From the NCBI GenBank assembly GCA_937139365.1, contig CAKZPT010000062.1, forward strand, positions 5,422 to 69,421: DNA of 64,000 bases. Reading direction: 5' to 3'. How positions within the stretch are numbered: position 1 is the first letter of the stretch; each line of letters begins with the position of its first letter. The position numbers were made by a program, and so were the translations under genes. The stretch is from an uncultured bacterium. GTDB lineage: Bacteria > Verrucomicrobiota > Kiritimatiellia > PWTM01. Below are positions 19,872 to 25,947 of the stretch, one piece after another. The notes under the pieces were generated by a model. The model did no database searches. It was not told the origin of the DNA and worked only from the letters and a program-made list of their open reading frames with translations.

Positions 19872-20379
19872 CCGACCGCCCCTCTCCCGTCGACCCGAGA
19901 GAGGCCGTCCGCCGCTGCAGCGCGGCCCACGCGGCGGGCGGCACGAAGCTCTGCGCGTCGCCGCCAAGCTCGGCGATCTGCCGCACGGTGCTGGAGCTGA
20001 CGTAGCTGAACTCCTCGCTGGGCATCAGAAACAACGTCTCGATGTCCGGCGCCAGCTTGCGGTTGGTCAGGGCCATCTGGAACTCGAACTCGAAGTCCGA
20101 AAAGGCCCGTAGCCCTCGCACGAGGACGCGCACCCCCCGCCGCCGCGCGTGCTCGACGAGGAGGCCGTCGAAGGGTTCCACCTCCACGTTCGGCAGGTGA
20201 GCCAGCGCCTCGCGGGCGATCGCGACGCGTTCGTCCACGTCGAACAGCGTCCGCTTCGGCGGATGCCGCGCCACGGCGAGGATCAACCGGGGGAAGATGC
20301 CAGCCGCCCGGCTAATGAGGTCCACGTGGCCAAGCGTGATCGGGTCGAAGGTTCCCGCGTACATCGCCGAAGGGTTCAT
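19861..20379 (-). CDS. coaD: Phosphopantetheine adenylyltransferase
   Basis: Trimmed to the ATG at 20379 (MNPSAMYAGTFDPITLGHVDLI). HxGH-type motif and the SSTVRQIA (ISSTxxR) motif. Confidence 0.9.
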   Translation of the reverse strand: MNPSAMYAGTFDPITLGHVDLISRAAGIFPRLILAVARHPPKRTLFDVDERVAIAREALAHLPNVEVEPFDGLLVEHARRRGVRVLVRGLRAFSDFEFEFQMALTNRKLAPDIETLFLMPSEEFSYVSSSTVRQIAELGGDAQSFVPPAAWAALQRRTASLGSTGEGRSDAH

Positions 20380-20408
20380 CGTTCGTCTCCGCCCGGGTCG
20401 TGGTCGAT

Positions 20409-20933
20409 TCAGAGCGCAAGCGGCGCGAACACCGCTCGCCCGCCCAGCCGTTCCCGACCGCGCAGGCCGCACAACTCCACCAAAAAATCGAACTCGACCA
20501 CGCGTCCGCCGAGCGCCTCCACCAGCCCGCCCGCGGCCGCCGCGGTGCCCCCCGTCGCCAGCAGGTCGTCGAAGACCACCACCCGCGCCCCTCTCGCAAC
20601 CGAATCCGCGTGGATTTCCAGCGAGGCCGAGCCGTATTCGAGCAAGTACTCCACCGACTGCGTCCTCCAGGGGAGTTTGCCCTTTTTCCGGATGGGGACC
20701 AGCGGCAGGCCCAGTTCGGCCGCGATGGCTCCGGCGAACAGGAAACCGCGGGCCTCGACGGCCGCGATCGCGTCCGCCCCTCCACGGCGATGCCGGTCGA
20801 CAAAAAGCCCCACCGCCGCGCGGAACAGCGCCGGATCGCCCAGAATCGGCGTCAGGTCCCGAAACAGGATCCCCGGTTTGGGAAAGTCCGGGACGTCGCG
20901 GATCGCACGCCGAAGCCGTTCAACGACGTCCAT
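20409..20933 (-). CDS. apt: Adenine phosphoribosyltransferase
   Basis: Trimmed to the ATG at 20933 ([31 protein letters not shown]), with VVVFDDLLATGGTAAA (PRPP-binding motif). Confidence 0.9.
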   Translation of the reverse strand: MDVVERLRRAIRDVPDFPKPGILFRDLTPILGDPALFRAAVGLFVDRHRRGGADAIAAVEARGFLFAGAIAAELGLPLVPIRKKGKLPWRTQSVEYLLEYGSASLEIHADSVARGARVVVFDDLLATGGTAAAAGGLVEALGGRVVEFDFLVELCGLRGRERLGGRAVFAPLAL

Positions 20934-22002
20934 GACCGCCCTTTCGCCGCCGACGGCCGGCGGCTCGCCGTTGACGCTTCGCCGAAACGGACCGCCGGCG
21001 CGGCGTCCCTGCCGTTTTCGCCGGCCGCCGCGCGGCGCGTTGTCGGGCCCGCCGCGGCCGGCGGGCAGTTTTGGCGTGGCGGGGAGCCATAGCCGTCGTG
21101 TTATCGCCGTCGGCCGACGGGGCCGCCGCGGCCGCCGCCATCTCCTCCGGCGCGAACGGCGCCTCCGGCGGCGGGTAGTTCGGCCGCGGGACTTTTTCCT
21201 CGAGCAGGTCCCGCAGCTTCGACAGGGCGCTGTTTTGGAGCTGCCGCACGCGCTCGCGGGTGATGCGAAACCGCTTGCCGACATCCTCGAGCGTCTCGAT
21301 GGGGGCGCCCTGCAGGCCGAAGCGGTATTTCAGAATCTCGCGCTCGCGCAGCGGCAGATAGCGCAGCAGCCGCGTTGCCTCGCTCTTCAACTGGGCGTCG
21401 TTGATCTCCTCGAACGGCGTGCGCGCGCGCTCGTCCCCGATGATGTCGCCGAACGTGCCGCCGTCGTCGTCGCCGATCGGCGCGTCGAGCGACGCGGGCC
21501 GAATGGCGACCGTCTGCCAGTGGCTGACGGTGGACTCTTCCACCCCCAGCTCCGCCGCCAGCTCGGCGTCGGTGGGGTCCCGCCCGAGTTCCTCCGAGAG
21601 CTTGCGCTCCGCCTTTCGCATCCGTGAAATCTTGTCCACCAGGTGGGCCGGCAGGCGGATCGTCTTGCTCTGGTTGGCCAGCGCCCGCTTGATCGCCTGT
21701 TTGATCCACCAAGCGGCGTAGGTGCTGAGCTTGCCGCCCTTTTTCGGGTCGAACCGCTCGACGGCCTTGACCAGCCCGATGTTGCCTTCGGAGATCAAAT
21801 CCAGCAGCGGCAGGCCGTACCGGGCGTAATCCTGCGCGATTTTGACCACCAGCCGGAGGTTGGCGGCGATCATCTGCTGGCGGGCCTCCCGGTCGCCACG
21901 CCGGATGCGCGCCGCCAGCTTGACCTCCTCCCTGGGGGTCAGCAGATCCACCTCGCCGATCTCCTGCAGATAGAGGCGGATCGTCTTGTCGCTTTCGCCC
22001 AT
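20920..22002 (-). CDS. RNA polymerase sigma factor, sigma-70 (RpoD/SigA) family, with an unusual Ala/Arg-rich C-terminal tail of about 95 aa
   Basis: Regions 1.2 to 4 are recognisable ([38 protein letters not shown], and the region-4 [30 protein letters not shown]). An extension rich in R, A and P follows. Start candidates are the ATG at 22002 (SD GGGAG upstream) or 22056. The stop overlaps apt by 14 nt. Confidence 0.85.
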
Positions 22003-22143
22003 GATCTCGCCTGTCTCCCACCCCACGCGGCCGACCGCCGCCCCGGGAAGGCTCATGATGGCACATTCCGGACCCGTGCGGAAGGCGGATTTGCCTTATC
22101 CGCCCGACACCCCTACCATCGGCGGCCGTCCGATGCACCGGCG

Positions 22144-24318
22144 ATGACGCGCGAGTCCCCAACCATCCTGTTCGTCTGCACCGGCAACACCTGCCGCAGC
22201 CCGATGGCCGAAGCGCTGTTCCGCCTGCGGGCCGGACTCGGCAGCCGATGGCGGGCCGTCTCTGCCGGCGTCGCCGCCATGGGGGGCCTGCCCGCCACCC
22301 CGGAAAGCGTCGAGGTCGTTCGCGAAGCCGGCGGCGACCTCTCGGGCCACCGGACCCGCCGACTGACGGCCGAGCTGGTCGCGCAGGCCGACATCATCGT
22401 CGCGATGAGCCGCTCGCACGCCCGCCAGGTGGCCGACGCCTTTCCTGAGGCCGCCGGCCGCATCCGGCTGCTCTCCTCCTACCGGGTCGGCGGGGTCGAG
22501 CAGGACATCGCCGACCCCGTCGGCCAGTCTCTGTTTGTCTATCGGAAAATTCGGGACGAAATTGACAGCGCCATCGCCGACCTCCTGATCGAGCTGCATC
22601 GGCCGACACAGCCGGCGGAGGCGCCACGGAGGGCCACGATGAGGATCGCGATCGGTTCGGATCATGGCGGATGGGAGATGAAACGGCGGGCGGTCGAGTG
22701 GCTGACGGCCCGTGGGCACGAGGTGCTCGATCTGGGCCCGGAGACCGCCGAGCCGGTGGATTACCCCGACTACGCCGCGGAGGTCGCCCGGCGCGTCGCG
22801 TCGGGTGGCGCAGAGACGGGCATCGTGCTGTGCACCAGCGGCATCGGGGCCTCGATCGCGGCCAACAAGGTGCCGGGCGTGCGCGCAGCCCTCTGCCTGA
22901 CCCCCCACATGGCCGAAATGGCCCGCCGCCACAACAACGCCAACGTGCTGGCCCTCGGCGGCGAGACGGTTCCCGCCGACCAGCTCGGGCCCATTCTCGA
23001 GGCATGGCTGGGTGCGGGGTTCGAAGCGGGCCGCCACGAACGCCGCGTCGGAAAGATCGCGCGCATCGAGCGGGAGGAGGCCGCCATGGCCGCGCTGGCC
23101 GCCACCGATCCCGAGGTGGCCGCCGCCATCGCCGTCGAGGCCCGCCGGCAGACGGACAACCTCGAGCTGATCGCCTCGGAAAACTACACCAGCCCCGCCG
23201 TGCGCGAGGCGGTGGGGTCGGTCCTCACCAACAAGTACGCCGAGGGCTATCCGGGCCGGCGGTGGTACGGCGGCTGCGAGCACGTGGATGTCGTCGAGCG
23301 CCTGGCCATCGAGCGCGCCAAAGCCCTGTTCGGCGCCGAGCACGCCAACGTCCAACCCCACTCCGGCAGCACGGCCAACATGGCCGTCTATTTTGCCCTC
23401 CTCGAGCCCGGCGACACGCTAATGGCGATGAGCCTGGCCGACGGCGGCCATCTCACCCACGGCCACCCAATGAACTTCTCCGGCCGCTTCTTCCGCATTG
23501 TGCCCTACGGCGTCTCACGCGAGACGGAGCGGATCGACTACGACGCCCTTGAGCGGCTGGCCACCGAACACCGTCCGAAGATGATCTGCGCCGGCGCCAG
23601 CGCCTACCCGCGCATCATCGACTTCGAACGGCTGCGGGCCATCGCCGACTCGGTCGGCGCGCTGCTGATGGTGGACATGGCCCACATCGCCGGTCTGGTC
23701 GCCGGCGGCGCACATCCCAACCCCGTGCCGTGGTGCGACGTGGTCACGACCACCACCCACAAGACCCTGCGCGGCCCCCGGGCGGGGCTGATCCTCTGCC
23801 GCGAAAAGCACGCCGCCGCCATCGACAAACAGTGCTTCCCCGGCATCCAGGGCGGTCCCCTGATGCACGTGATCGCCGGCAAGGCCGTCTGCCTTCGGGA
23901 GGCCGCCGCGCCGGAGTTTCGCGACTACGCCGCCCGGATCGTCCGCAACGCCCAGGTGCTCGCCCGCGTCCTCGTCGAAGGGGGACTGCGCATCGTGTCG
24001 GGAGGCACCGACAACCACCTGATGTTGGTGGACGTCACCCCCTTCAAGCTTACCGGCAAGGACGCCGCCGCCGCCCTCGACCGCGCCTGCATCACGGTCA
24101 ACAAGAACGCGATCCCGTTCGACACGCGCAGCCCATTCGTCACCTCCGGCATCCGCATCGGCACCCCCGCCGTCACCACCCGCGGCATGGGCGAGGCGGA
24201 GATGGAGGTCATCGGCCGGTGCATCCTCGGGGTCCTTCGCGCTCCATCCGACGAGACCGCAATCGCGCGCGTCCGCGAGGAGGTCCTCGCCCTCACCCGC
24301 CGCTTCCCGGTGCCCTGA
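22144..24318 (+). CDS. In-frame fusion ORF: low-molecular-weight protein-tyrosine phosphatase (22144..about 22608), ribose-5-phosphate isomerase B (ATG 22639), and serine hydroxymethyltransferase GlyA (ATG 23086..24318)
   Basis: PTP: [19 protein letters not shown] (CX5R P-loop). RpiB: [22 protein letters not shown]...[21 protein letters not shown]. GlyA: [14 protein letters not shown]...[11 protein letters not shown]...[16 protein letters not shown]. There are no stop codons between the three modules. Each internal ATG has its own SD (GGAGG 9 nt and GGGAGGAGG 7 nt upstream). The track ORF 21643..24318 is a single 891-aa frame. Confidence 0.8.
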
Positions 24319-24686
24319 GCGCCGGTCCCGGCATCGTGAAGGCCGCCGGCGCCCGATCGCCGAGTCCGGCACCGCCGGAGTTCCAACCCTTGGACAAACG
24401 GCCACCGGCGGGTTCCAAGGTTTGGACAGTATGCCGTCTGTAGGTGCCCATGGTTGGACACGCCGGCGGCTCGCCACTGCCGGCATCGTCAGGAACTCGG
24501 AGCAGAAGGCCACGGAGGCGGCTGCGCGCAGCCCCTCCGCCCGGGGAGCACGAGCCATCTTCCCATCGGGCCCGGGCGCGTCGCCTACCGGCGGCACACG
24601 GGCCGGCTGGCCACCGGCGCCGCCGTCGGTTAACCTGCCGGCGCGCCCGCCGACGGGGTTGGGTGCCACGTTTGAAAGGGGGTCGC

Positions 24687-25947
24687 ATGAAAGCGCGGAG
24701 TGTCGCGGCCTGGGCGGTGGCCTGGGCGGCGGCATGGAGTGGGGCGCGGGAGGAGACGGCCGCCCGATGGCCGTGATGGCGCGGCCCGGCGGACAACGCG
24801 GTCGTCGCGCAGGACCTGCCGATCCATTGGAGCGCCGATTCGAACGTCACATGGAGCGCGGCTCTGCCCGGCCGCGGCGCCTCGACGCCGGTCGTGTGGG
24901 ACGGTCGCATCGTGCTCACGCGCCGGTGGAGGGCCACGATGGCGTGCTGGCGTTCGACCTGGCGGGCCGTGAGCTTTGGCGGCGGACGTTCGGACCCGCC
25001 CGCCGCGCCACCGGTCGGCCTCCAGTTGCAACCCCTCGCCGGTCACCGACGGCCGCCTCGTCTGGGTGTATTTCAAGAGCGGTACGCTGGCAGCCCTCAC
25101 GTTGGACGGCACAACGGTGTGGGCCCGTTCGGTCGAGGAGGAGTTCGGGCCTGACCATCTGGTTTGGGACGTCGGCACCTCGCCGGTGCTGACCTCCAAC
25201 CACGTGGTGCTCTCGGTGATGAACGGGCCGGCGTCCCACCTGGCCGCGTGGGACCGGGCGACGGGTCGGCTTGCCTGGCGGGTGCCGCGGGCCTGGCCCT
25301 GTGCATACGAGGCCGATCAGGGATACACGACGCCGATGGTTCTATCCCACCGCGGCCGTGAGGCCGTGCTGGTCTGGAACGCGGAACACGTGACGTTGCA
25401 CGACGCGCGGGACGGCTCGGTGATCTGGGACTGCGGCGGGCTGAACCCCGAAGGCCGCAGCAACTGGCCGCCGGTCGCATCGCCGGCGCTGGCCGACGGC
25501 ATGATCCTGGTGCCCTACGGACGCGGCCAGCGCCTGTTCGGCCTGGCGCTCGAAGGCGAGGGCGACGTCACCGCCACCGCGCACCGGTGGATGCGATCCG
25601 ACACCGGCAGCTACGTCCCCACGCCGCTGGTCTGGCGCGGCCGGCTGATCCTGCTGCGCGATCGGCACGAAGCCGAATGCATCGAGCCGGCGACCGGCCG
25701 CACGCTGTGGACCGGCCGGCTCGAGCGCAGCCCAACGCCCTTCTACGCCTCGCCGTTGATCGCGGCCGATCGCCTCTACGCGGTGCGCGAGGACGGCATG
25801 GTGTTCGTCGCGGCGTTGGACCCGGAGTTTCGGGTGCTGGCCCGGAACGCGATGGGCGAGCCGATCTGGGCCTCGCCGGTGCCCCTCGGGCGCCGCCTGT
25901 TGCTGCGCGGCGAGCGGCATCTATTCTGCATCGGGCCGCCGATCTGA
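24687..25947 (+). pseudogene. PQQ-like beta-propeller repeat protein (secreted): in-frame TGA after the signal peptide plus two frameshifts
   Basis: Signal peptide MKARSVAAWAVAWAAAWSGA, then TGA at 24774. The coding signal then hops frame 0 (WSADSNVTWSAALPGRGASTPVVWDGRIVLT), frame 2 (EGHDGVLAFDLAGRELWRRTFGP) and frame 1 (ORF 24976..25947: SPVTDGRLVWVYFKSGTLAALTLDGTTVWARS...). These are typical PQQ/BamB-like blades. The frame switches lie near C-runs at about 24900 and about 25000. Confidence 0.6.

What the first reader, a model, noticed from the sequence alone, without database searches (positions are those of the whole stretch)
22144..24318. Single in-frame ORF fusing LMW protein-tyrosine phosphatase, RpiB and serine hydroxymethyltransferase
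Three normally separate proteins are encoded in one uninterrupted 725-codon frame: an LMW-PTP/arsenate-reductase fold, ribose-5-phosphate isomerase B and GlyA. Short Pro/Ala-rich linkers ([17 protein letters not shown]) fall exactly at the domain boundaries. Each downstream module still carries its own ATG and a strong Shine-Dalgarno (GGAGG at -9, GGGAGGAGG at -7). This suggests that full-length fusion protein and internally initiated RpiB-GlyA and GlyA products are all possible. Two consecutive stop losses that both preserve frame are unlikely by chance (about 1 in 9). LMW-PTP and RpiB share a related Rossmann-like phosphate-binding fold and are often neighbours. Adding SHMT (one-carbon metabolism) to a pentose-phosphate enzyme is a coupling I do not recall being described.
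Basis: seen in the sequence. Interest (0 to 1): 0.7.

Follow-up and report, generated by a model that had tools for sequence, protein, structure and literature searches.

The report
Conserved phosphatase–RpiB–SHMT fusion gene
The three-enzyme open reading frame is real and inherited, shared by many Kiritimatiellia and Verrucomicrobia relatives and first noted in a Verrucomicrobia genome in 2008; the new point is that the window's clade keeps a working-looking internal start signal, so the gene probably makes two proteins.

Summary
Window 22144-24318 (+) is one 724-codon ORF with complete LMW-phosphatase, RpiB and SHMT domains and all catalytic motifs intact. It is not an artefact: a 723/724-identical copy exists in an independent metagenome, and more than 110 protein clusters (58-72% identity; Kiritimatiellia, Lentisphaerae, Verrucomicrobia MAGs) share the architecture. 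It is not a new coupling. Hou et al. 2008 described the same three-domain protein (Minf_1669) in Methylacidiphilum, and the fusion follows a widespread gene order (tsaC - ywlE-type phosphatase - rpiB - glyA). The two junctions differ. RpiB-SHMT is an old, PVC-wide, seamless join with a predicted continuous helix and no conserved internal Met. The phosphatase-RpiB join is a disordered tether that has opened and closed repeatedly; the window's nearest relatives have it as two overlapping genes. In the window's clade this tether keeps a start codon (10/10 genes with DNA) preceded by a Shine-Dalgarno motif. The motif is usually GAAAGG, encoded with the rare AGG codon that no other Glu-Arg pair in those genes uses. 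This supports internal initiation of RpiB-SHMT. The window's second internal ATG (Met315) has a strong SD but is not conserved. Interest is modest: a known architecture with an evolutionary and translational twist.

The parts
22144..24318 (+). Single ORF, 724 codons plus TGA: LMW phosphatase - RpiB - SHMT fusion
   Evidence: An identical product in two assemblies and a 723/724-identical product in an independent JGI contig.
22057..22143 (.). 87-nt divergent intergenic region between the sigma-70 gene and the fusion gene. No SD before ATG 22144, no sigma-70 consensus match and no Rfam match.
22165..22587 (+). LMW-PTP (YwlE-like) domain, residues 8-148. P-loop C12-T-G-N-T16-C-R18-S (Cys12 = 22177-22179); general acid D124-P-V-G.
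   Evidence: Pfam PF01451, 120.6 bits. Best PDB hits are 4egs and YwlE 4kk3/1zgg/4pic. Motifs are invariant in the family.
22603..22638 (+). Linker 1, residues 154-165 ([12 protein letters not shown]): hypervariable in the family and predicted disordered
   Evidence: Alignment. AF2 pLDDT below 50 for residues 154-163.
22628..22632 (+). GGAGG Shine-Dalgarno-like motif 6 nt upstream of the internal ATG. It is built from CGG-AGG, and AGG is 2 of 69 Arg codons in this gene.
22639..22641 (+). Internal in-frame ATG (Met166), the first residue of the RpiB domain and the probable internal initiation site for an RpiB-SHMT product of 559 aa
   Evidence: Met in 106/117 family members. ATG, GTG or TTG in 10/10 clade genes with DNA.
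22639..23076 (+). RpiB domain, residues 166-311. Motifs G-S-D173-H174-G-G, C230-T-S-G-I-G (Cys230 = 22831-22833), H263-N, R297-H-E-R-R.
   Evidence: Pfam PF02502 172 bits; TIGR01120 158 bits against cut-off 138.65. Motifs invariant.
23032..23157 (+). Junction 2: predicted continuous helix (residues 297-321) running from the RpiB C-terminus into the SHMT N-terminal helix (323-338), with no flexible linker
   Evidence: AF2 secondary structure, pLDDT about 70-74. About 12 variable residues in the family and no conserved Met.
23072..23088 (+). GGGAGGAGG (23072-23080) plus ATG Met315 (23086-23088): the strongest SD-like site in the gene but specific to this lineage
   Evidence: E = -13.8, top 0.2% of positions. 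Met absent in all other family members shown.
23098..24315 (+). SHMT (GlyA) domain, residues 319-724. PLP lysine K540 (23761-23763) in [12 protein letters not shown].
   Evidence: Pfam PF00464 543.8 bits; NF000586 635 bits. PDB SHMT hits at E about 1e-170. Motifs invariant.
20920..22056 (-). Divergently transcribed sigma-70 family (RpoD-like) gene. This is context only and is not part of the fusion.

Best explanation
This is a genuine, vertically inherited gene fusion of three neighbouring housekeeping genes, in the conserved bacterial order ywlE-type LMW phosphatase, then rpiB, then glyA (often preceded by tsaC). It encodes a polypeptide with three catalytically competent domains.

The two joins have different ages and natures. 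RpiB-SHMT is an old, seamless fusion shared across the PVC superphylum (Verrucomicrobiota, Kiritimatiellota, Lentisphaerota). It is connected by a helix and has no internal start, so it is an obligate bifunctional enzyme. It supplies ribose-5-phosphate (which leads to PRPP) together with glycine and one-carbon units, the inputs of purine and thymidylate synthesis. In the window's clade the gene usually sits in a purD-purE-(S41 peptidase)-tsaC-fusion cluster.

The phosphatase is attached through a disordered, hypervariable tether. This join has toggled repeatedly between three states: two genes overlapping by ATGA, two genes separated by one in-frame stop, and one ORF.

In the window's clade the rpiB ribosome-binding site and start codon are preserved inside the fused ORF at the nucleotide level. 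The gene therefore most likely yields two products from one mRNA: the full-length phosphatase-RpiB-SHMT (about 78 kDa) and an internally initiated RpiB-SHMT (559 aa, about 60 kDa). The outer start has no SD and the inner one has a strong SD, so the shorter product is probably the more abundant.

What is shown: the ORF, the domains, the motif conservation, the recurrence, the labile junction, and the codon-level conservation of SD plus start. What is inferred: the enzymatic activities, the internal initiation itself, the product ratio, and the nucleotide-synthesis rationale.
For: Reality and recurrence:
- the ORF and its domains.
- more than 110 clusters with the same architecture at 58-72% identity.
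- independent copies of this exact gene.

Catalytic integrity:
- P-loop C/R and the DP Asp; RpiB D-H, Cys and R-H..R; SHMT PLP-Lys. All are invariant in about 120 sequences.

Conserved gene order and grades of fusion:
- Firmicutes and Opitutales have LMWPc | rpiB | glyA as separate adjacent genes.
- Many PVC loci have LMWPc | RpiB-SHMT.
- L007 (Akkermansia MAG), L010, L011 and 13 metagenome loci have the triple fusion.
- L003 has a four-domain TsaC fusion.

Labile junction 1:
- L004 and L006 have an ATGA overlap. L005 has a single in-frame TAG.
- In the tree, unfused members are nested among fused ones. The window's closest relatives (P0098 and P0101, 77% identity) are unfused.

Internal start:
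- the codon at the RpiB start is ATG in 8, GTG in 1 and TTG in 1 of 10 clade genes.
- the linker Glu-Arg is GAA-AGG (6 genes) or GAA-AGA (1 gene), ending 9 nt before the start. All 45 other Glu-Arg pairs in the same genes are GAR-CGN. AGG is 2.5% of Arg codons, and in L165 and L166 the linker AGG is the only one in the gene.
- the same (T)GAAAGG lies 7-12 nt upstream of rpiB-glyA in unfused relatives.
- Met in 106/117 and 'ERxxxM' in 59/117 family proteins, within an otherwise hypervariable linker.
- ordinary genes in these loci carry GGAG, AAGGAG or GAAAGG upstream of their starts.

Structure: linker 1 has pLDDT below 50; junction 2 is a continuous helix.

Context: purD-purE-S41-tsaC lies upstream in 8 of 10 clade loci.
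Against: - There is no expression or biochemical data for any member. The literature searches found only the 2008 one-sentence description.
- Verrucomicrobiota-type triple fusions have no Met and no SD at the RpiB boundary. The full-length protein alone is therefore sufficient in those organisms, and internal initiation is not intrinsic to the architecture.
- The window's own internal SD (GGAGG, 6-nt spacer) differs from the clade's usual GAAAGG with a 9-nt spacer. Because its nearest relatives are unfused, the signal in this particular genome could be a young, not-yet-decayed relic.
- The ten DNA sequences are related, so the codon statistics are not fully independent.
- The window lacks the purD-tsaC context of its clade.
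- The phosphatase's substrate is unknown. The pArg-type Thr at P-loop position 5 is present in the window, but most of the family has Val or Ile.
Confidence: 0.7

Rival explanations
1. Sequencing or assembly artefact: one or two stop codons or a frameshift were missed, and the three genes are really separate.
For: The window's closest relatives (L004/P0098 and P0101) have the phosphatase as a separate gene overlapping rpiB-glyA by ATGA. A 1-2 nt indel error in the linker could in principle create the junction-1 fusion.
Against: The same 724-aa product appears in two assemblies. An independent JGI contig differs only by V611I and has identical junctions. More than 110 other clusters have the same architecture. 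The linker DNA is broadly diverged from L004 and is not a single-base difference. Junction 2 is fused in every PVC relative examined.
Confidence: 0.01
2. Only the full-length trifunctional protein is made. The conserved SD-like motif and Met in linker 1 serve another purpose, such as a translational pause at an SD-like sequence plus a rare AGG codon that lets the phosphatase domain fold before RpiB emerges. Alternatively they are relics that persist because the junction is re-created often.
For: Healed triple fusions without any internal start exist and keep all catalytic motifs, so the full-length protein is functional by itself. Junction 1 is gained and lost repeatedly, which could keep 'young' signals in view. 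A rare codon plus an SD-like motif at a domain boundary fits a pausing model (inference).
Against: A pause needs no start codon, yet the codon 9 nt downstream is ATG, GTG or TTG in 10/10 clade genes and Met in 106/117 proteins. The motif, spacing and start codon match the functional rpiB-glyA RBS of unfused relatives. The family has diverged to 58-72% protein identity, and the rest of the linker is already hypervariable, so unselected signals should have decayed as well.
Confidence: 0.22
3. Three nested products: full-length, RpiB-SHMT from Met166, and free SHMT from Met315.
For: In the window, ATG 23086 has the strongest SD-like sequence of the whole gene (GGGAGGAGG, 5-nt spacer, -13.8 kcal/mol, top 0.2%). 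It also lies where a stand-alone GlyA would start, 7 residues before the conserved D-P-E motif.
Against: Met315 is absent from all other family members shown, including the closest (P0078, P0098, P0101, P0002, P0003). The SD-like run is the by-product of Glu codons GAG-GAG in a Glu-rich connector. The site lies inside a predicted continuous helix. The RpiB-SHMT join is ancient with no trace of an internal start elsewhere.
Confidence: 0.1
4. The N-terminal domain is not a protein phosphatase. It would instead be an arsenate reductase or a small-molecule phosphatase acting on a metabolite of the fused enzymes, such as a sugar phosphate or a PLP-related compound.
For: The LMW-PTP and ArsC folds are related, with weak ArsC model hits. 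Direct LMWPc-SHMT fusions without RpiB (L136, L144, L151, L161), together with LMWPc-RpiB fusions (L016), show a persistent association with these metabolic enzymes whose reason is unknown. No arginine or tyrosine kinase partner was looked for or found.
Against: ArsC models score 53-61 bits against cut-offs of 174-215. The closest solved structures are YwlE-type phosphoarginine phosphatases, with an identical P-loop CTGNTCRS. Thr at P-loop position 5 is the reported pArg determinant (PMC8001253). Adjacency of the pArg phosphatase gene ptpB to glyA is also seen in S. aureus, where the enzyme acts on proteins.
Confidence: 0.12

Closest known systems
Minf_1669 of Methylacidiphilum infernorum V4 (Hou et al. 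2008, Biol Direct 3:26; PMC2474590)
   Same: It is described as one protein containing an SHMT domain plus domains homologous to LMW phosphatase and RpiB. It comes from the same superphylum (PVC). Verrucomicrobiota loci recovered here (L007 Akkermansia MAG, L010 Pedosphaera, L011) have the same domain order as the window.
   Different: The window protein belongs to a separate Kiritimatiellia/Lentisphaerae clade. In that clade junction 1 is labile and retains an internal SD plus start codon, whereas Verrucomicrobiota-type fusions lack both. The 2008 paper gives one sentence with no biochemistry, and the Minf_1669 sequence itself was not retrieved here.
Firmicutes gene cluster tsaC(ywlC) - ywlE/ptpB (LMW phosphoarginine phosphatase) - rpiB(ywlF) - glyA
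   Same: It has the same genes in the same order as separate cistrons (loci L028, L045, L068, L079, L025). S. aureus ptpB lies next to glyA (PMC8001253). The window's N-domain has the YwlE P-loop CTGNTCRS, and YwlE structures are its best-characterised PDB relatives.
   Different: These are separate polypeptides in Firmicutes. The window's family mostly has Val or Ile, not Thr, at P-loop position 5. Nothing shows that a McsB-type arginine kinase exists in this lineage.
Genes with in-frame internal translation starts giving two isoforms (E. coli infB IF2 alpha/beta, cheA long/short, clpB; from general knowledge, not checked here)
   Same: An in-frame start codon preceded by its own SD lies inside a longer ORF. 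The predicted result is a full-length product plus an N-terminally truncated product that shares the C-terminal domains.
   Different: Here the internal start is the retained original start of a formerly separate gene (rpiB-glyA), and the longer form adds a whole extra enzyme domain. Production of the short form has not been demonstrated.
Rosetta-stone fusions of operon neighbours (general phenomenon)
   Same: This is a fusion of adjacent, co-regulated genes. All pairwise combinations occur somewhere: LMWPc-RpiB (L016), RpiB-SHMT (many loci), LMWPc-SHMT (L136, L144, L151, L161) and TsaC-LMWPc-RpiB-SHMT (L003).
   Different: It is unusually deep (three to four enzymes), and one junction is held in a reversible state.

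Membership tests
LMW protein phosphatase family (Pfam PF01451 LMWPc) | Profile match above the gathering score over the whole domain | tested here: met
   120.6 bits against cut-off 23.2; profile positions 1-144 of 144
LMW protein phosphatase family (Pfam PF01451 LMWPc) | P-loop C-X5-R-(S/T) nucleophile motif and the general-acid Asp of the D-P motif | tested here: met
   C12-TGNT-C-R18-S and D124-P. C, R and D-P are invariant in all family members that include the region.
YwlE/PtpB-type phosphoarginine phosphatase | Thr at P-loop position 5 (Thr favours pArg, Ile favours pTyr; PMC8001253 citing Fuhrmann 2013) | tested here: met
   The window has T16 (CTGNTCRS, identical to YwlE). Across the family this position is Val in 38, Ile in 36 and Thr in 11 members, so it is not a family-wide property.
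YwlE/PtpB-type phosphoarginine phosphatase | Phosphoarginine phosphatase activity, and a cognate arginine kinase (McsB) in the genome | not testable with these tools
   No enzymology is available, and only 64 kb of the genome is at hand.
Thioredoxin-coupled arsenate reductase (ArsC, pI258 type) | Score above the NCBIfam cut-off for TIGR02691 or NF010053 | tested here: not met
   53.3 bits against 174.3, and 60.6 bits against 215
Ribose-5-phosphate isomerase B (TIGR01120 equivalog; Pfam PF02502) | Score above the equivalog cut-off | tested here: met
   158 bits against 138.65. PRK05571 gives 176.4 against 135. The LacA, LacB and DerI models all fall below their cut-offs.
Ribose-5-phosphate isomerase B (TIGR01120 equivalog; Pfam PF02502) | Catalytic and phosphate-binding motifs (D-H near the N-terminus, Cys in C-x-[ST]-G-[IV]-G, H-N, R-H-x-R-R) | tested here: met
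   D173-H174, C230, H263-N264 and R297-H298..R301 are present and invariant or near-invariant in 120 sequences. Assigning these residues to catalysis rests on general knowledge of E. coli-type RpiB.
Serine hydroxymethyltransferase (PF00464; NF000586) | Full-length profile match above cut-off, and the PLP-binding Lys in T-H-K-T-L-R-G-P-R | tested here: met
   543.8 bits (Pfam) and 635.1 bits against 335 (NCBIfam). K540 and its motif are invariant in 120/120 sequences. PDB SHMT hits are at E about 1e-170.
Minf_1669-type LMW phosphatase-RpiB-SHMT fusion proteins | All three domains in one uninterrupted ORF, recurring in related genomes | tested here: met
   The prior description is in PMC2474590.
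Genes with a functional in-frame internal initiation site | In-frame start codon with an SD at proper spacing, conserved beyond what protein coding explains | tested here: met
   A start codon in 10/10 clade genes. SD GAAAGG, GGAGG or AGGAG lies upstream. The linker Glu-Arg uses AGR in 7/7 cases against 0/45 elsewhere in the same genes.
Genes with a functional in-frame internal initiation site | Detection of the shorter polypeptide or of initiating ribosomes at the site | not testable with these tools
   No proteomic or ribosome-profiling data are available. The literature searches found none.

The most novel reading that the evidence does not exclude
In the Kiritimatiellia/Lentisphaerae clade the gene is a selected dual-output locus. 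One mRNA gives a low-abundance full-length phosphatase-RpiB-SHMT and a high-abundance, internally initiated RpiB-SHMT. Because RpiB and SHMT both oligomerise, the two isoforms would co-assemble, tethering a sub-stoichiometric regulatory phosphatase to a nucleotide-precursor enzyme complex. The repeated fusion and fission at junction 1 would then be nearly neutral switching between covalent and non-covalent delivery of the phosphatase. The recurrence of LMWPc-SHMT and LMWPc-RpiB fusions elsewhere would reflect a real, still unknown functional partnership between YwlE-type phosphatases and these enzymes.
Probability: 0.3. Interest if true: 0.55.

Novelty: new member of a known kind. Interest (0 to 1): 0.35.

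Why it matters
The fusion is a strong 'Rosetta stone'. It ties a YwlE-type LMW phosphatase, whose role outside Gram-positive stress biology is obscure, to RpiB and SHMT. It also ties RpiB to SHMT as a single bifunctional enzyme across a whole superphylum that includes Akkermansia. That gives a concrete, testable hypothesis for why the ywlE-rpiB-glyA gene order is conserved in bacteria: co-ordinated supply of ribose-5-phosphate, glycine and one-carbon units for nucleotide synthesis, possibly under phosphatase control.

The codon-level conservation of an internal ribosome-binding site is a clean natural example of a fused gene that keeps producing its unfused product. It also matters for annotation, because these genes are currently named only 'ribose 5-phosphate isomerase B' or 'glycine hydroxymethyltransferase'.

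None of this is a new kind of system, and the architecture itself was reported in 2008.

Tried and rejected
- Artefact hypothesis: rejected.
- Arsenate reductase identity for the N-domain: rejected on NCBIfam cut-offs.
- Riboswitch or other RNA element around the gene (ZTP, THF, glycine): no Rfam match at E <= 1 in 21500-24900.
- Sigma-70 promoter consensus: none found in 21900-24800. The four terminator-like hits lie inside the CDS and are weak.
- The first SD-energy script had a parsing bug in which secondary HMM hits overwrote the RpiB domain. It was discarded and redone.
- With the E. coli-type anti-SD tail, the GAAAGG motif scores only moderately. The argument therefore rests on codon choice and positional conservation, not on pairing energy. 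I could not obtain this lineage's 16S 3' end to test pairing with a ...CCUUUC tail.
- 5-mer enrichment upstream of 99 called gene starts was statistically uninformative, although many starts visibly carry GGAG, AAGGAG or GAAAGG.
- Literature: there is no follow-up on Minf_1669 and no paper linking LMW-PTP with RpiB, or Akkermansia with this fusion. The Fuhrmann 2013 paper was not held, so the Thr/Ile determinant is cited through PMC8001253.
The architecture counts are samples, not a census. The many 'rpiB-stop-glyA in the same frame' loci are a selection effect of the tblastn confirmation step.
- The NJ tree is crude (BLOSUM distances, no support values). I used it only to show that unfused members are interspersed among fused ones.
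- I did not run multimer modelling or a fold search, because the domain identities were already unambiguous.
Full report
OBSERVATION

The window carries one uninterrupted frame from ATG 22144 to TGA 24316-24318, 724 codons. Pfam matches three complete domains: LMWPc at residues 8-148, LacAB_rpiB at 168-305 and SHMT at 319-693, each covering essentially the whole profile. The NCBIfam rpiB equivalog and SHMT models pass their curated cut-offs. The arsenate-reductase, Wzb, LacA/B and DerI models do not.

Met166 is ATG 22639, with GGAGG at 22628-22632. Met315 is ATG 23086, with GGGAGGAGG at 23072-23080. Of the 20 in-frame ATGs, these two have by far the strongest predicted anti-SD pairing (top 3.1% and 0.2% of all positions in the gene). 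The annotated start has none.

The region is 70% GC, and long spurious ORFs abound on both strands. Openness of a frame alone therefore means little here. The domain content is what matters.

NOT AN ARTEFACT

The contig exists in two assemblies with the same product (MAG GCA_036845605.1 and ENA ERZ27245459). An independent JGI metagenome contig encodes a protein that is 723/724 identical, with identical junctions.

More than 110 clusters (clustered at 90% identity) at 58-72% identity and about 100% coverage have the same three Pfam domains. Where named, they come from Kiritimatiellia, Lentisphaerae and Verrucomicrobia MAGs and are labelled 'ribose 5-phosphate isomerase B' or 'glycine hydroxymethyltransferase'. 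About 26 members of 703-708 aa begin at the Met of the conserved S-P-M-A-E just after the P-loop, so they look like start-codon miscalls.

All catalytic motifs are invariant or nearly so across the family:
- Phosphatase: C-x-G-N-x-C-R-S and D-P.
- RpiB: D-H, the C-x-[ST]-G-[IV]-G cysteine, H-N, and R-H-x-R-R.
- SHMT: the PLP lysine in T-H-K-T-L-R-G-P-R, plus GGHLTHG.

PRIOR DESCRIPTION

A full-text search found Hou et al. 2008 (PMC2474590). [quoted passage not shown] No later paper in the library mentions it. The architecture is therefore known but uncharacterised.

WHERE IT COMES FROM

I then classified each locus by stop-to-stop ORFs and domain HMMs. This shows a graded series along one conserved gene order.

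- Firmicutes (Macrococcus, Marinococcus, Desulfoscipio, Syntrophomonadaceae) and an Opitutales MAG have LMWPc | rpiB | glyA as separate adjacent genes. S. aureus ptpB, the YwlE orthologue, also abuts glyA (PMC8001253).
- Many phyla have rpiB | glyA adjacent.
- PVC bacteria, plus one Eisenbacteria MAG, have RpiB-SHMT fused, either with a separate LMWPc gene just upstream (L004, L005, L006, L013, L017, L019, L089, L100, L102, L114) or without one.
- Triple fusions occur in the window's clade and in Verrucomicrobiota: L007 (an Akkermansia muciniphila MAG), L010 (Pedosphaera), L011 and 13 metagenome loci.
- A four-domain form adds TsaC/Sua5 at the N-terminus (P0047/L003; its cluster has 9 members from several sources).
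- LMWPc-RpiB only (L016) and LMWPc-SHMT without RpiB (L136, L144, L151, L161) also exist.

In the window's clade, 8 of 10 loci with DNA place the gene after purD-(purE)-S41 peptidase-(tsaC). The window itself, and L171, do not. The window gene instead faces a divergent sigma-70 gene.

THE TWO JUNCTIONS ARE DIFFERENT THINGS

Junction 2 (RpiB-SHMT) has about 12 variable residues between R-H-E-R-R-V-x-K-I and D-P-E, and no conserved Met. AlphaFold2, run with a 93-sequence alignment (mean pLDDT 88.4), predicts one continuous helix at residues 297-321 leading into the SHMT N-terminal helix. The junction is fused in every PVC relative examined. It is an old, seamless bifunctional enzyme.

Junction 1 (phosphatase-RpiB) is a 15-30 residue hypervariable tether with pLDDT below 50. 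It exists in three interconvertible states:
- two genes overlapping by ATGA (L004, L006);
- two genes in the same frame separated by a single TAG (L005);
- one ORF.

In a distance tree of the RpiB-SHMT part, unfused members are scattered among fused ones. The window's closest relatives (P0098/L004 and P0101, 77% identity) are unfused. The window's linker DNA differs from L004 throughout, not by a single base.

INTERNAL INITIATION

In 10 clade genes for which I obtained DNA, the codon aligned to the first RpiB residue is ATG in 8, GTG in 1 and TTG in 1. All three are bacterial start codons.

Seven genes have a linker Glu-Arg encoded as GAA-AGG (6) or GAA-AGA (1), ending exactly 9 nt before that codon. 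The other three have GGAGG (the window), AGGAG or GGAGGAG. All 45 other Glu-Arg dipeptides in the same genes are GAR-CGN. AGG is 2.5% of Arg codons overall, and in two genes the linker AGG is the only AGG.

Unfused relatives carry the same (T)GAAAGG 7-12 nt upstream of the rpiB-glyA ATG. At the protein level, Met is kept in 106/117 sequences and 'ERxxxM' in 59/117, in an otherwise unconserved linker.

This is nucleotide-level conservation of a ribosome-binding site plus a start codon inside an ORF. The simplest reading is that RpiB-SHMT is still translated from its own start, and that the full-length form is an additional product.

Verrucomicrobiota-type triple fusions have neither a Met nor an SD there. 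The full-length protein therefore works on its own, and the dual-output arrangement is clade-specific.

For Met315 there is no such support. It is unique to the window's lineage, and its SD-like run comes from Glu codons.

THE PHOSPHATASE

Its closest solved relatives are 4egs and the YwlE phosphoarginine phosphatases, with an identical P-loop CTGNTCRS. Thr at P-loop position 5 is the reported determinant of pArg over pTyr specificity (PMC8001253). The window has Thr, but the family mostly has Val or Ile, so substrate class cannot be assigned.

Why a phosphatase of this type travels with RpiB and SHMT remains unexplained. The independent LMWPc-SHMT and LMWPc-RpiB fusions argue that the association is not accidental.

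VERDICT

This is a real, conserved, multi-enzyme fusion. The architecture is already on record (2008) and common in PVC genomes, so the finding itself is a new member of a known kind.

What is new here is the contrast between the two junctions and the evidence that the window's clade keeps an internal start, together with repeated fusion and fission of the phosphatase. That is worth a simple expression experiment but is not a major surprise.

Noticed in passing
L136 (753-2549), L144 (2498-4198), L151 (2495-4198), L161 (2495-3784): Direct LMW-phosphatase-SHMT fusions with no RpiB domain. Only about 26-55 codons separate the domains, and the P-loop, DP and PLP-Lys (TTHKSLRGPR) motifs are intact. 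This is an independent link between this phosphatase type and SHMT. The lineage is unknown (metagenome contigs).
   Followed up: partly
L115, L118, L119 (e.g. L118 172-2394): A subgroup of triple fusions in which the RpiB domain has lost every catalytic motif: GSDHGG becomes GLAGDPSG, the catalytic Cys becomes Gly/Arg, RHNNAN becomes RERYHAN, and GGRHERR becomes GGKSEQR. The phosphatase and SHMT domains stay intact (TTTTHKGLRGPR). This suggests the RpiB fold is kept as a structural spacer or oligomerisation module.
   Followed up: partly
L085 (617-2941), 77% GC: A triple fusion with intact phosphatase and RpiB domains but a degenerate SHMT domain. The PLP lysine motif is replaced (GGTGATMRGPG), GGHLTHG is lost, ELIASEN becomes DLRAAAD, and the SHMT HMM score is 192 against about 700. 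It may be a pseudoenzyme paralogue.
   Followed up: partly
L003 8001-10679 (P0047 cluster, 892-927 aa): A four-domain fusion, TsaC/Sua5-LMWPc-RpiB-SHMT, with dUTPase and thyA nearby. In sister loci, tsaC overlaps the fusion gene by 4 nt (L169, L172) or ends 3 nt before it (L166). A second labile junction therefore exists upstream.
   Followed up: partly
L003, L165-L170, L172: A conserved cluster, purD-(purE)-S41 peptidase-(tsaC)-fusion, in the window's clade. The S41 (C-terminal processing) peptidase embedded between purine genes and tsaC is unexplained.
   Followed up: no
window 22057-22146: The annotated start ATG 22144 has no Shine-Dalgarno-like sequence (+0.3 kcal/mol), and the 87-nt divergent intergenic region has no sigma-70 consensus match. 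Initiation of the full-length form may be weak or SD-independent.
   Followed up: partly
L005 4060-4240 (Pontiella sp. MAG): The phosphatase and rpiB-glyA are in the same frame, separated by a single TAG (…GQK*KEGPIMKIAIG…). This is one substitution away from the fused state of its sister P0028. Stop-codon readthrough was not examined.
   Followed up: no
L016 1098-2072 (Halanaerobiales MAG, 33% GC): An LMWPc-RpiB two-domain fusion without SHMT in a Firmicutes-related lineage. It too has AGGAG about 11 nt upstream of the internal ATG of the RpiB part.
   Followed up: no
PDB 4egs: The best structural relative of the N-domain is deposited under the name 'Ribose 5-phosphate isomerase RpiB', although it aligns to the LMW phosphatase domain. 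This is probably a naming carry-over from the adjacency or fusion with rpiB.
   Followed up: no
window 22096-23361 (-) and other long ORFs in 20149-25947: Many long antisense or overlapping ORFs (up to 421-492 aa) overlap the real genes. They are a typical by-product of 70% GC and show no sign of being genes.
   Followed up: no
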